Source of the DNA: Candidatus Hydrogenedens sp.
GTDB taxonomy: Bacteria; Hydrogenedentota; Hydrogenedentia; Hydrogenedentales; Hydrogenedentaceae
Direction of reading: 5' to 3'
DNA: 745 nucleotides
Assembly (NCBI GenBank): GCA_049968235.1
Contig: JBMFRC010000050.1
Coordinates: 1-745 of the forward strand
The notes beneath the pieces were generated by a model. That model saw nothing but the letters and a program-made list of their open reading frames with translations. It was not told where the DNA came from and made no database searches. Below are positions 1-745 of the stretch, piece by piece. Each line of letters begins with the position of its first letter. The first letter of the stretch is position 1. The translations under genes and the position numbers were made by a program.

Positions 1-745
1 TTAATTTCCTTTTAAGATAAATGGAAAGCAAACTTCTTAATTTTACAATTTCATGCATCATACCTATGGGAAAGGCACCAGAACCAACCGCTGGGTCGCA
101 TACCTTTATATCAGCAAGTAATCTGTCAATTTCTTCTGCATTTTTAATTATGCTTTCAGGCATTTTATGTTCATACTTTGTTTCTTTTTGTTCACCTCTT
201 TCAATCTTGTTTTTCTTTTCAAGGGCAGTTCTTTCATACTCTAAAATTAAATCTGCATATTTTACAAATTTCTCAATATCTTCCCTTCTTACTTTTCCAC
301 TTAGTTCCGTTTCAAGATAATTTATCAAACTCTCTTGGCACATATAATGGACAATCTCTCTTGGTGTATAATAGACACCATATTCTTTGTTGAATTTTGT
401 CTCTTCGCCCTTTTTACCTGATTTTAAAACTTTTACATATTCATCAAAATTATCCGGACGAATGGCATTCAGTTTTTCATAGATTTTTCCGAGTAGTTCA
501 GGGTCAAGGGCAACTTCTTTTTCAAGTGGTTCTTCTTCATTAACTGTGAAATTATATCTGTCAAAAACATCAAGGATGCCGTCTCCGATATCACCTTCTT
601 TTGTTCTGTTTGAATTTGAGAAAAGTTCATTTGGTAAAAGAATATCAACATCAACCCAGTCAAAATTATTTAATGGGTCAAAAAGCCCACCATTTAAAAA
701 AGGAATTTTACAATTAAATCTGCTGTAATAATGATCATCTGCTCC
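1..745 (-). CDS. Internal fragment (partial at both ends) of a large N6-adenine DNA methyltransferase-domain protein, of Eco57I-like / type IIG restriction-modification / BREX PglX-like architecture. Codons are phased so that 745-743 is codon 1 of the fragment; the frame stays open through position 2. Translation: GADDHYYSRFNCKIPFLNGGLFDPLNNFDWVDVDILLPNELFSNSNRTKEGDIGDGILDVFDRYNFTVNEEEPLEKEVALDPELLGKIYEKLNAIRPDNFDEYVKVLKSGKKGEETKFNKEYGVYYTPREIVHYMCQESLINYLETELSGKVRREDIEKFVKYADLILEYERTALEKKNKIERGEQKETKYEHKMPESIIKNAEEIDRLLADIKVCDPAVGSGAFPIGMMHEIVKLRSLLSIYLKRKL
   Basis: Manual reverse complement and translation show 248 consecutive sense codons with no stop. The other two minus frames reach stops within the first ~20 codons (TAA at codon 17 in frame 2, TGA at codon 3 in frame 3). 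Codon choice is coherent with a low-GC genome (AAA, GAA, AAT, TTT, ATT dominate). Canonical amino-MTase motif X (GVYYTP) and motif I (DPAVGSGAF) occur in the expected order and spacing class. No in-frame Met sits near the 745 end and no stop near the 1 end, so both termini lie outside the window. Confidence 0.9.
62..103 (-). other. Methyltransferase motif I (VCDPAVGSGAFPIG), the D/E-P-A-x-G-x-G AdoMet-binding glycine loop
   Basis: Codons 215-228. A hydrophobic beta-strand residue followed by DPAxGSGxF is the classic FxGxG/motif I signature (canonical form DPACGSGxFL). The local GC rise in + coordinates 61-100 is explained by the Pro/Ala/Gly codons of this motif. Confidence 0.85.
104..313 (-). 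other. Lys/Glu-rich, predicted helical insertion between motif X and motif I (ETELSGKVRREDIEKFVKYADLILEYERTALEKKNKIERGEQKETKYEHKMPESIIKNAEEIDRLLADIK)
   Basis: Codons 145-214. Charged residues recur with an i/i+3/i+4 pattern and there are no Pro or Gly runs. The ~85-residue gap between YYTP and DPAxGSG is far longer than the ~30 residues recalled for classical type I HsdM, which is my reason for assigning the Eco57I-like / type IIG / PglX branch. Confidence 0.55.
341..379 (-). other. Methyltransferase motif X (GVYYTPREIVHYM), the N-terminal helix/loop that contacts AdoMet in gamma-class N6-adenine MTases
   Basis: Codons 123-135 of the minus-frame translation. G-x-(Y/F)-(Y/F)-T-P followed by a hydrophobic helix matches the GxFYTP/GxYYTP motif of HsdM, Eco57I-family, MmeI-like and PglX proteins. 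Confidence 0.8.
461..574 (-). other. HsdM-N-like block: LDVFDRYNFTVNEEEP...DPELLGKIYEKLNAI (hydrophobic/acidic patch followed by the LGxxYExLL motif)
   Basis: Codons 58-95. The pattern 'F..Y.F...E.....D.xLGxxYExLL' precedes motif X in type I HsdM (recalled form DLLGDAYEYLL) and in type IIG/PglX-family proteins. Here it reads VALDPELLGKIYEKL. Confidence 0.65.
680..700 (-). other. FLNGGLF motif (codons 16-22)
   Basis: Seen directly in the translation. I recall an (F/Y)-L-N-G-G-L-F motif as conserved upstream of the MTase core in Eco57I-like / type IIG / PglX-type proteins. This is from memory and needs confirmation by profile search. Confidence 0.5.

What the first reader, a model, noticed from the sequence alone, without database searches (positions are those of the whole stretch)
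62..379. Gamma-class N6-adenine MTase core (motif X then motif I) with an unusually long charged spacer: type IIG / PglX-like rather than classical HsdM
Motif X (GVYYTP, + coordinates 341-379) lies N-terminal to motif I (DPAVGSGAF, 62-103). The two are about 85 residues apart and the gap is filled by a K/E-rich helical segment. Motif X before motif I is the gamma-class order shared by type I HsdM, Eco57I-like type IIG/IIL enzymes (the MmeI family) and BREX PglX. The long spacer and the surrounding NGGLF block argue for the large single-chain type IIG / PglX-like group, in which nuclease or other N-terminal domains, the MTase and a target-recognition domain are fused. If this is correct, motif IV (NPPY/NPPF/DPPY) should be encoded about 60-100 codons beyond position 1, in the same frame and continuing leftward off the window. 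A target-recognition domain should follow it.
Basis: partly seen in the sequence, partly recalled or inferred. Interest (0 to 1): 0.6.

Follow-up and report, generated by a model that had tools for sequence, protein, structure and literature searches.

The report
Adenine methylase fragment with helicase-nuclease partner
The window is an internal piece of a large, common DNA adenine methyltransferase gene of the "type IIG-like" kind. In relatives this gene almost always sits next to a helicase-nuclease gene, so it is an ordinary member of a known family whose usual label may be slightly wrong.

Summary
The minus strand is one open frame of 248 codons. GVYYTP (motif X) lies at 362-379 and DPAVGSGAF (motif I) at 71-97, with 88 K/E-rich residues between them, predicted with high confidence to be helical.

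The fragment matches a PADLOC "type IIG" profile at E=5e-103. A 99%-identical contig continues to NPPY, 136 codons past the window end rather than the predicted 60-100. Full-length relatives (~1,050-1,250 aa) add a TaqI_C recognition domain. It is not HsdM or BREX PglX.

The X-to-I distance is 94 aa, against 25 in HsdM, 32 in CamA and 49 in MmeI. About 63-70 aa is the baseline in the wider clade. The excess is a poorly conserved extension with many indels.

"Single-chain restriction enzyme" is not shown. The N-terminal domain has no clear nuclease motif. In 69 of 71 informative loci a PLD-nuclease/SNF2-helicase gene with intact catalytic motifs lies directly upstream.

Most likely this is the methylase-specificity subunit of a two-gene, ATP-dependent restriction-like system. 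That system has been noted in passing in the literature but not characterised. The window itself is an ordinary member of an annotated family.

The parts
2..745 (-). Internal fragment (248 codons, no start, no stop) of a ~1,050-1,250-aa gamma-class N6-adenine DNA methyltransferase-TRD fusion. It corresponds to about residues 300-550 of full-length relatives.
   Evidence: The frame is open. PADLOC PDLC03596 scores E=5.4e-103. [quoted passage not shown] In full-length representatives the match starts at about aa 300-312.
476..745 (-). C-terminal part of the helical domain that precedes the catalytic core (aa 1-90). It includes the conserved IPFLNGGLF block (NGGLF = 680-694) and the highly conserved FDRYNFTV..EPLEKEVA.DPELLGK block.
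386..475 (-). Subfamily-specific segment just before motif X (aa 91-120, KLNAIRPDNFDEYVKVLKSGKKGEETKFNK). It is absent or shorter in many relatives.
   Evidence: Alignment occupancy is 0.23-0.69. The NGGLF-to-X distance is 105 in 63 loci but 84 in 5 loci. P0108 and P0111 lack it.
305..379 (-). Motif X (GVYYTP, 362-379) and the conserved helix that follows it (REIVHYMCQESLINYL, aa 129-147).
   Evidence: Translation is confirmed. Y126, T127, R129 and V132 are invariant, and G123, P128, H133-Q137 are nearly invariant. The segment aligns to motif X of CamA, HsdM and MmeI. pLDDT is 95-98.
113..304 (-). Variable K/E-rich helical extension between motif X and motif I (aa 148-211). Predicted helices are 154-162, 164-182 and 197-211.
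   Evidence: pLDDT is 94-98. This is the least conserved part of the window (top-residue frequency 0.32-0.56), with indels after aa 151 and at aa 171-190. Family X-I distances are 83-129. Three of the five nucleotide differences from the 99%-identical L002 are non-synonymous and fall here, at aa 178, 184 and 201.
71..112 (-). Strand beta-1 plus motif I, the AdoMet-binding loop (DIKVCDPAVGSGAF; DPAVGSGAF = 71-97).
   Evidence: Translation is confirmed. D217, P218, A219 and G221-F225 are nearly invariant. The segment aligns to motif I of MmeI (DPACGCGNF), PglX (DPACGSGH), CamA and HsdM.
2..70 (-). Helix after motif I (PIGMMHEIVKLRSLLSIYLKRKL). The contig ends here. In relatives the chain continues to 'YELKRHCIENSLYGVDID...NPPY'.
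   Evidence: Helix 224-244 is predicted. The continuation is seen in L002.

Best explanation
**What the window encodes.** It is the middle of a large gamma-class N6-adenine DNA methyltransferase. The window covers, in order:
- the end of the PglX/MmeI/HsdM-like helical domain (NGGLF block);
- motif X;
- a helical module inserted into the Rossmann fold;
- motif I, the AdoMet-binding loop.

In full-length relatives the chain has a conserved ~160-aa alpha/beta N-terminal domain upstream. Downstream it continues to motif IV (NPPY) and a single TaqI_C-type target-recognition domain. One polypeptide should therefore recognise an asymmetric site and methylate one adenine.

**The system it belongs to.** The family is labelled 'type IIG' by homology. 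In nearly every relative, however, it is the second gene of a two-gene cassette. The first gene encodes an N-terminal PLD (HKD) nuclease fused to an SNF2-type SF2 ATPase.

**Most likely mechanism (inferred, not shown).** This is a two-component, ATP-dependent restriction-modification-like system, functionally a 'split type ISP' or type I/III-like system.
- The methylase-TRD subunit marks self DNA and reports unmodified sites.
- The PLD-SNF2 partner acts as the motor-nuclease effector, probably as a dimer because it has only one HKD motif.

**The X-I spacer.** It is a structured helical module. About 63-70 aa is common to the wider helicase-partnered clade, and PglX is similar (~68). The window's lineage adds a fast-evolving K/E-rich helical extension of unknown role. 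The extension is not needed for the helicase partnership.
For: **Identity**
- The open frame and motif positions are confirmed.
- PADLOC PDLC03596 scores E=5e-103 for the fragment, 6e-285 for P0122 and 0 for L012.
- Pfam Eco57I (150 bits against a cut-off of 25.3) and TaqI_C are found in full-length relatives.
- NPPY is present in the 99%-identical L002 and in 67 loci.

**Fold**
- The spacer is helical at pLDDT 94-98.

**Partner**
- A PLD+SNF2 ORF lies directly upstream on the same strand in 55 loci in full and in 14 more where it is cut by a contig edge. One locus has only a remnant and one has none.
- The partner carries Pfam PLDc_2, SNF2-rel_dom and Helicase_C.
- Its catalytic signatures HAK...GRVITGSSN, GLGKTY, DEAHRFR and QRVGRINR are at least 90% conserved in 46 loci.
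- Nothing else is conserved in the neighbourhood.
- Variable defence cargo is nested between the two genes, as happens in type I operons.
- Relatives at 30-34% identity on plasmids have the same partner.

**Precedent**
- The MANTIS effector MtsD is a PLD-SF2 dimer acting downstream of an MTase (10.64898/2026.09.23.753747).
- The gene pair is listed in Milman et al. 2023, Table 3 (PMC9881135).
- PglX homologues were formerly mislabelled type IIG in REBASE (PMC12707154).
Against: - The window's own genomic context is unknown, because the contig is only 745 bp. The partner is inferred from relatives, and even the 99%-identical L002 contig starts inside the MTase gene.
- No experiment exists for this family, as far as the held literature shows.
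- Cj0031 is a solitary type IIG enzyme. Milman et al. describe helicase-adjacent MTase genes as homologous to it, and it restricts phage on its own (PMC4889913). I did not test its relation to this family.
- The physical interaction between the two proteins, and any role of the spacer, are untested.
Confidence: 0.7

Rival explanations
1. It is a genuine single-chain type IIG restriction-modification enzyme. The conserved N-terminal alpha/beta domain is an active, divergent PD-(D/E)XK-like nuclease that cuts near the recognition site. The neighbouring PLD-SNF2 gene is an independent or merely accessory defence gene.
For: - The PADLOC 'REase_MTase_IIG' profile covers the full length, N-terminus included.
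- The N-terminal domain is highly conserved with invariant acidic and basic residues.
- Type IIG Cj0031 restricts phage without a helicase (PMC4889913).
Against: - There is no canonical D...(D/E)XK. The position-76 residue is variable, and K78 is K in 33 and Q in 19 of 60 sequences.
- There is no Pfam hit for the N-terminal 410 aa and no significant Foldseek hit.
- The near-obligate synteny (69 of 71 loci) with a nuclease-helicase that keeps its catalytic residues is hard to explain if the MTase protein were self-sufficient.
- The PADLOC label is homology-based, and PglX was mislabelled the same way.
Confidence: 0.2
2. It is the PglX/BrxX methyltransferase of a BREX system, as some database entries for relatives say.
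For: [quoted passage not shown]
- There are weak NCBIfam and PADLOC PglX hits.
Against: - NCBIfam BREX_1_MTaseX scores 17.9 bits for the fragment and 83.9 bits for full-length P0122, against a cut-off of 500.
- No PglZ, BrxC, BrxL, BrxA or BrxB-like gene recurs in 80 loci.
- The partner is a PLD-SNF2 helicase instead.
Confidence: 0.02
3. It is a component of a known multi-gene helicase-and-methylase system: BREX-related type 2 / MANTIS (DUF499 ATPase, DUF3780/3870, MTase, HKD-SF2 helicase), Hma, or class 1 DISARM (DrmMI).
For: - The partner has the same N-terminal HKD plus Swi2/Snf2 architecture as the BR type-2 / MtsD effector.
- There are PADLOC partial hits to DrmD, HmaA and BrxH for the helicase, and to DrmMI for the MTase.
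Against: - No DUF499, DUF3780, DrmA, DrmB or DrmC gene is present in or recurrent across the loci.
- MANTIS MtsC is a group-alpha MTase with a central TRD, whereas this is group gamma with a C-terminal TaqI_C TRD.
- The best PADLOC models are REase_MTase_IIG, with far better E-values than DrmMI.
Confidence: 0.04
4. It is a classical type I HsdM subunit.
For: - There are weak Pfam N6_Mtase hits.
- Nesting of cargo genes resembles type I operons.
Against: - The TRD is fused (TaqI_C) and the protein is about 1,100 aa.
- No hsdS or hsdR is nearby.
- The X-I spacing is 94 against 25 in HsdM 3KHK.
- The best profiles are Eco57I and IIG.
Confidence: 0.01

Closest known systems
Eco57I-type 'type IIG-like' gamma-MTase-TRD fusions (PADLOC REase_MTase_IIG PDLC03596; Pfam Eco57I PF07669 + TaqI_C PF12950)
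   Same: There is a full-length profile match, with E=0 for L012 and 5e-103 for the fragment. The motif order is X-I-IV, with NPPY and a C-terminal TaqI_C TRD. The size is about 1,100 aa.
   Different: No recognisable nuclease motif is present in the N-terminal domain. There is a near-obligate separate PLD-SNF2 partner gene. The X-I spacing is longer than usual.
MmeI (type IIL/IIG; PDB 5HR4)
   Different: MmeI has X-I = 49 aa and an N-terminal D-X8-EXK nuclease (from my own knowledge of the MmeI literature), and it works without a helicase. Here Pfam MmeI_N, MmeI_hel and MmeI_TRD are not hit, and MmeI_Mtase is only marginal at 29 bits against a cut-off of 27.
BREX PglX/BrxX (PDB 8C45, 9EWZ)
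   Different: Scores are far below the NCBIfam cut-offs. No BREX partner genes are present. The partner here is a PLD-SNF2 helicase-nuclease.
Type ISP enzymes (LlaGI/LlaBIII)
   Same: The functional parts list is the same: nuclease, SF2 motor, gamma-MTase and a single TRD recognising an asymmetric site (PMC3874165).
   Different: Type ISP is one polypeptide with an Mrr-type PD-QXK nuclease. Here the nuclease (PLD/HKD) and motor are on a separate protein, and the motor is SNF2-like.
MANTIS / BREX-related type-2 effector MtsD and SauUSI (PLD + SF2 ATPase nucleases)
   Same: The partner gene has the same N-terminal single-HKD nuclease plus SF2/SNF2 ATPase layout. MtsD acts downstream of an MTase-containing recognition complex.
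   Different: MANTIS needs a DUF499 AAA+ ATPase and DUF3780/3870, and it uses a group-alpha MTase. SauUSI carries its own SRA-like reader and targets modified DNA. Neither uses a gamma-MTase-TRD fusion.

Membership tests
Gamma-class N6-adenine DNA methyltransferase | Linear order motif X, then motif I (AdoMet loop), then motif IV, with the TRD C-terminal | tested here: met
   X (aa 123-128) lies before I (aa 217-225) in the window. IV and TaqI_C lie downstream in L002, P0122 and L012.
Gamma-class N6-adenine DNA methyltransferase | Catalytic motif IV (N/D)PP(Y/F/W) in the same chain | not testable with these tools
   The window's contig ends 31 aa after motif I. In the 99% DNA-identical L002, NPPY is 167 aa after motif I, and 67 of 67 loci that reach that far have NPP(Y/W).
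Type IIG restriction-modification enzyme (R and M in one polypeptide) | Profile match to curated or putative type IIG proteins | tested here: met
   PADLOC PDLC03596 scores E=5.4e-103 for the fragment, 5.6e-285 for P0122 and 0 for L012. The label is homology-based.
Type IIG restriction-modification enzyme (R and M in one polypeptide) | An endonuclease domain with catalytic motif in the same polypeptide | tested here: inconclusive
Type IIG restriction-modification enzyme (R and M in one polypeptide) | Works without a separate motor or nuclease subunit | tested here: not met
   By genomic association only: a PLD-SNF2 gene lies directly upstream in 69 of 71 informative loci with catalytic motifs conserved. 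Functional dependence is not tested.
BREX PglX | Score above the NCBIfam BREX MTaseX cut-offs | tested here: not met
   BREX_1_MTaseX scores 17.9 bits (fragment) and 83.9 bits (P0122) against a cut-off of 500. BREX_6 scores 53.1 against 900.
BREX PglX | Operon with pglZ, brxC and other BREX genes | tested here: not met
   No such gene recurs in 80 loci. The neighbours in L012 and L003 are unrelated.
Type I HsdM | Separate HsdS specificity and HsdR subunits, an MTase of ~500 aa without a TRD, and short X-I spacing | tested here: not met
   The TaqI_C TRD is fused and the protein is ~1,100 aa. No hsdS or hsdR is present. X-I is 94 against 25 in 3KHK.
Type ISP (LlaGI-like) | Mrr nuclease, SF2 helicase, MTase and TRD in a single polypeptide | tested here: not met
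   Helicase-nuclease and MTase-TRD are separate ORFs in all loci, and the nuclease is PLD rather than Mrr.
BREX-related type 2 / MANTIS (Gao_RL) | DUF499 AAA+ ATPase and DUF3780/3870 genes in the operon, with a group-alpha MTase | tested here: not met
   No such genes are present. The MTase here is group gamma, whereas MtsC is group alpha. Only the HKD-SF2 effector architecture is shared.
Class 1 DISARM DrmMI | Co-occurrence with DrmA, DrmB (DUF1998) and DrmC | tested here: not met
   There are only partial DrmMI and DrmD profile hits. No DrmA, DrmB or DrmC recurs.
MmeI family (type IIL) | MmeI_N nuclease, MmeI helical spacer, MmeI_Mtase, MmeI_TRD and MmeI_C domains | tested here: not met
   Only MmeI_Mtase is hit. 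It is marginal at 29 bits against 27 in L012, and below the cut-off in P0122 and the window. The similarity of the helical domain is structural only.

The most novel reading that the evidence does not exclude
The large family to which this fragment belongs has over 4,000 50%-identity clusters across many bacterial phyla and some archaea. It may not be a set of single-chain type IIG enzymes. It may instead be the modification-and-specificity subunit of an uncharacterised two-gene class of ATP-dependent restriction systems.

In that reading, a gamma-MTase-TRD fusion reports unmodified asymmetric sites to a dimeric PLD-nuclease/SNF2 motor. This would be a 'split type ISP' built with a different nuclease and motor.

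The conserved N-terminal alpha/beta domain and/or the variable K/E-rich helical arms of the MTase would be the coupling surfaces.
Probability: 0.5. Interest if true: 0.5.

Novelty: new member of a known kind. Interest (0 to 1): 0.3.

Why it matters
**For the window itself: little.** It is a correctly annotated fragment of a common DNA methyltransferase family.

**The wider point is annotation and mechanism.**
- Thousands of genes are labelled "type IIG", "Eco57I-domain" or even "PglX", yet they are tightly paired with a PLD-SNF2 helicase-nuclease.
- If restriction depends on that partner, these entries are mislabelled, as PglX once was.
- A widespread, compact two-gene ATP-dependent R-M architecture would then remain biochemically uncharacterised.
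- A fused MTase-TRD gives one-protein specificity, which makes such systems attractive for methylome prediction and for engineering.

Tried and rejected
**Searches that led nowhere**
- phmmer of the 248-aa fragment against PDB sequences gave no hit at E<=10.
- Foldseek of the fragment model against PDB gave a best E of 2.7, which is meaningless for a piece cut across domains.
- Rfam found nothing on either strand at E<=1.
- The repeat search found only a 15-nt chance pair.
- The phage collection had no protein-level match.
- phmmer of the helicase partner against PDB gave only generic SF2 C-terminal-domain hits.

**Tool limitation**
- The search for homologous proteins listed only proteins up to about 1.75 times the query length. 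Full-length relatives had to come from cluster members, genome contigs and the representative search.

**Ideas rejected**
1. *The extra spacer length marks the helicase-partnered lineage or is the docking site.* Rejected as a correlation. Relatives at 30-34% identity with X-I of 63 and 70 aa have the same PLD-SNF2 neighbour.
2. *Membership in BR type-2 / MANTIS, Hma or DISARM.* Rejected because there are no DUF499, DUF3780 or DrmABC genes and the MTase class differs.
3. *PglX.* Rejected on score cut-offs and context.
4. *The + strand 99-aa ORF (21-320) is a gene.* Rejected. It is the antisense shadow of the K/E-rich coding region, and such antisense ORFs recur in 27 loci only because the sense gene is conserved.
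5. *The contig end at 'SIYLKRKL' marks an insertion like the one in L009 and L010.* Rejected. The 99%-identical L002 reads straight on into 'NTYELKRHC'.
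Full report
**1. What is in the window**

The 745-bp window is one open reading frame on the minus strand (248 codons, window 2-745) with no start and no stop. The other two minus-strand frames are full of stops. The window is a whole contig. [quoted passage not shown]

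GVYYTP translates from 362-379 and DPAVGSGAF from 71-97. NGGLF is at 680-694. Motif X precedes motif I by 94 residues start to start, with 88 residues between them. That stretch is 31% K+E, against 17.5% in the rest of the window.

Chance is excluded. The fragment scores E=5.4e-103 against PADLOC profile PDLC03596, "REase_MTase_IIG". It also has 4,341 relatives at E<=1e-3 among 1.84 billion cluster representatives. Pfam and NCBIfam give only sub-threshold hits for the fragment (N6_Mtase, MmeI_Mtase, PglX). This is because the Eco57I domain proper lies downstream of the window.

**2. The rest of the protein, from relatives**

- L002 is a 2.5-kb contig from a Ca. Ratteibacteria MAG. It differs from the window at 5 of 745 bases.
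- L002 reads on in frame through "...YELKRHCIENSLYGVDIDPGAVEICKLRFWLS..." to "GGFDIVIANPPYVSTKG".
- NPPY lies 167 residues after motif I, which is 136 codons beyond the window's end.
- P0122 is a full-length member of the same 90% cluster (1,275 aa). The cultured Thermodesulfobacterium thermophilum homologue is L012 9101-12493 (1,130 aa).
- Both match PDLC03596 end to end (E=6e-285 and E=0). Both carry Pfam Eco57I (up to 150 bits against a cut-off of 25.3) and a C-terminal TaqI_C specificity domain.
- Representatives are typically 1,050-1,250 aa, with the window region starting at residue ~300-312.
- All 80 genome loci retrieved show NGGLF and a G(V/F/T/A)YYTP motif X. DPA(V/I/A)GSGAF is found in 76, and NPP(Y/W) in all 67 that reach that far.
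- Hosts span many phyla, including Thermodesulfobacteriota, WOR-3, Aminicenantes, Chloroflexota, Bacteroidota, Patescibacteria and Planctomycetota. Archaea appear among the more distant hits.

**3. The spacer**

A family profile searched against PDB sequences gives direct comparators for the start-to-start X-to-I distance.

| Protein | X-to-I distance (aa) |
|---|---|
| Type I HsdM (3KHK, G225 to D250) | 25 |
| CamA (7LNI, G29 to D61) | 32 |
| MmeI (5HR4, G312 to D361) | 49 |
| NCBIfam PglX profile | ~68 profile positions |
| Window | 94 |
| Close family, 76 loci | 83-129, median 100 |
| 30-34% identical plasmid relatives | 63, 67, 70, 106 |

"Unusually long" is therefore true against classical gamma-MTases and MmeI. 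About 63-70 aa is the baseline of the wider clade. The rest is a lineage-specific extension.

AlphaFold2 was run with a 60-sequence alignment and gave mean pLDDT 79.6. It predicts the X-I stretch as helices 129-147, 154-162, 164-182 and 197-211 with pLDDT 94-98. The stretch is a structured helical module, not a flexible linker.

Its flanks are conserved: REIVHYMCQESLINYL after motif X, and PESI..NA..ID..LA.I.VCDPA before motif I. Its core (aa ~141-210) is the least conserved part of the window, with top-residue frequency 0.32-0.56. It carries the indels, after aa 151 and at aa 171-190.

Three of the five differences between the window and L002 are non-synonymous and fall there: K178R, G184S and K201E.

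A second, smaller subfamily-specific segment sits just before motif X (aa 91-120). Many relatives also have another variable K/E-rich helical insertion between motif I and motif IV. Decorating the Rossmann fold with charged helices is a habit of this family. I could not determine what the extension does.

**4. Fold relationships**

- Foldseek found nothing significant for either model.
- The family's IPFLNGGLF aligns with MmeI's PYINGKLFE.
- The first ~160 residues form an alpha/beta domain with many invariant polar residues: R59, D71, R87, Q90, R91, K107, D122, R124, S126, R153, E162, S164 and H165.
- That domain has no Pfam hit and no clean D...(D/E)XK. Position 76 is variable, and K78 is K in 33 and Q in 19 of 60 sequences.

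**5. Genomic context**

*The partner gene.* In relatives the gene is the second of a two-gene cassette.
- A ~1,080-aa ORF lies directly upstream on the same strand. It carries an N-terminal PLD (HKD) domain, an SNF2-related ATPase and Helicase_C.
- It is present in full in 55 loci and cut by the contig edge in 14. One locus (L038) has only a remnant and one (L010) has none. Nine loci have no upstream DNA.
- Its catalytic signatures are at least 90% conserved in 46 loci: HAK...GRVITGSSN (a single HKD motif, which implies dimerisation as in Nuc, BfiI and MtsD), GLGKTY, DEAHRFR, ATPYNN and QRVGRINR.

*The rest of the neighbourhood.*
- Clustering all neighbouring ORFs of at least 150 aa shows nothing else conserved. 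There are no BREX genes, hsdS, hsdR or DUF499.
- About 25 loci have unrelated defence cargo nested between the two genes: Schlafen-AlbA2/HATPase_c_4, AbiEii, NYN, HepT/MNT, Bro-N, a MjaI R-M pair and DUF1016. This is a pattern familiar from type I operons.

*Distant relatives.* Relatives on plasmids from Prevotella, Nostoc and Planktothrix keep a PLD-SNF2 neighbour despite shorter spacers. Partnership therefore does not depend on the extension.

*The window itself.* Its own context cannot be seen, so the partnership is inferred from relatives.

**6. What it most likely is and does**

*Shown:*
- The fragment belongs to a gamma-class adenine MTase-TRD fusion of the Eco57I / "type IIG-like" family.
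- The family is tightly linked to a PLD-SNF2 gene that keeps its active-site residues.

*Inferred:*
- The pair forms an ATP-dependent R-M-like system.
- The MTase-TRD subunit recognises an asymmetric site through its single TRD and methylates one strand.
- Unmodified sites license the PLD-SNF2 motor-nuclease.
- The parts list equals that of type ISP enzymes, but it is split over two proteins and uses a PLD instead of an Mrr nuclease (PMC3874165).
- The effector architecture equals MANTIS MtsD and the BR type-2 helicase (PMC12839542; 10.64898/2026.09.23.753747).

*Main rival:* true single-chain type IIG activity from the N-terminal domain. It keeps about 0.2 probability.

*Ruled out:* PglX, HsdM, DISARM and MANTIS membership each fail at least one defining feature.

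**7. Prior knowledge**

- The family has a PADLOC model and routine NCBI names.
- Milman et al. [quoted passage not shown]
- Shah et al. 2018 listed "C3a139 HKD+Snf2" near type III CRISPR loci (PMC6546367).
- I found no paper in the held library that names or characterises the two-gene system.
- A 2025 review notes that PglX homologues were "formerly listed as Type IIG" in REBASE (PMC12707154). That is a precedent for this kind of mislabel.

**8. Verdict**

The window is an ordinary new member of a known, annotated family. The modestly interesting point is that the family's "single-chain type IIG" label probably hides a two-component helicase-nuclease-dependent system. Interest is 0.3.

Noticed in passing
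L009:2558-3473 and L010:~10700-11485 (also L035, and P0122 aa ~747-859): Homologous MTase genes carry in-frame insertions of an IS200-like / REP-associated tyrosine transposase (HUH) domain (Pfam Y1_Tnp E=3e-11, NCBIfam REP_Tyr_transpos E=4e-15 in P0122). In L009 and L010 the domain is flanked by tandem hairpin repeats (CACAGACA-TTCC-TGTCTGTG) with periods of 27, 33 or 36 nt. All periods are multiples of three, so the host ORF stays open. There are four cases at two sites: just after the motif-I helix, and just before NPPY. A REP-RAYT unit translated inside a host gene is unusual.
   Followed up: partly
L056, L066, L070, L069, L081, L075, L047, L032, L067, L041, L046, L053, L079 (between 'NLDY(K/R)IMQGNSLI' and 'FFLW.L.FSEVF'): A second K/E-rich helical insertion of 60-150 aa and variable length sits between motif I and motif IV in many relatives. 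It stretches the I-to-IV distance from about 170 to 229-324 aa.
   Followed up: partly
About 25 loci, e.g. L048:7685-9044, L028:8170-9101, L054:8477-9074, L004:8427-9071, L060:7059-9059: Unrelated defence-type genes are nested between the helicase and MTase genes: Schlafen AlbA_2+HATPase_c_4 (12-15 loci), AbiEii (4), NYN (3), a HepT+MNT toxin-antitoxin pair (2), Bro-N, a complete MjaI R-M pair and DUF1016.
   Followed up: yes
L082 (Prevotella nigrescens plasmid NZ_CP082843.1) 9813-14150: Downstream of a distant helicase-MTase pair lie two inverted 'Eco57I domain' gene fragments and an Mpi-family DNA invertase. This is probably a shufflon that swaps the TRD end of the MTase, as described for such genes by Milman et al. 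2023.
   Followed up: no
window 386-475 (-), aa 91-120: A ~21-30-aa segment just before motif X (AIRPDNFDEYVKVLKSGKKGEETKFNK) is present in the window's subfamily. It is missing in other family members, where the NGGLF-to-X distance is 84 instead of 105.
   Followed up: partly
window 8, 145, 196, 200, 213 (+ coordinates): These are the only five differences from the 99%-identical L002. Three are non-synonymous (K178R, G184S, K201E) and all three lie in the variable spacer core. The two synonymous ones are E182 and R246.
   Followed up: yes
window 21-320 (+), 99-aa ORF: This is an antisense ORF opposite the K/E-rich coding stretch. The same shadow ORF appears in L002, and antisense ORFs cluster in 27 loci. 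It is most likely an artefact of the codon composition of the sense strand (GAA/AAA opposite TTC/TTT), not a gene.
   Followed up: partly
L038:8917-9069 and L010 upstream 1-9073: These are the two exceptions to the synteny. L038 keeps only the last ~50 codons of the helicase gene. L010 has no helicase in 9 kb upstream, and its MTase gene carries the REP-RAYT insert. Both may be decaying systems.
   Followed up: no
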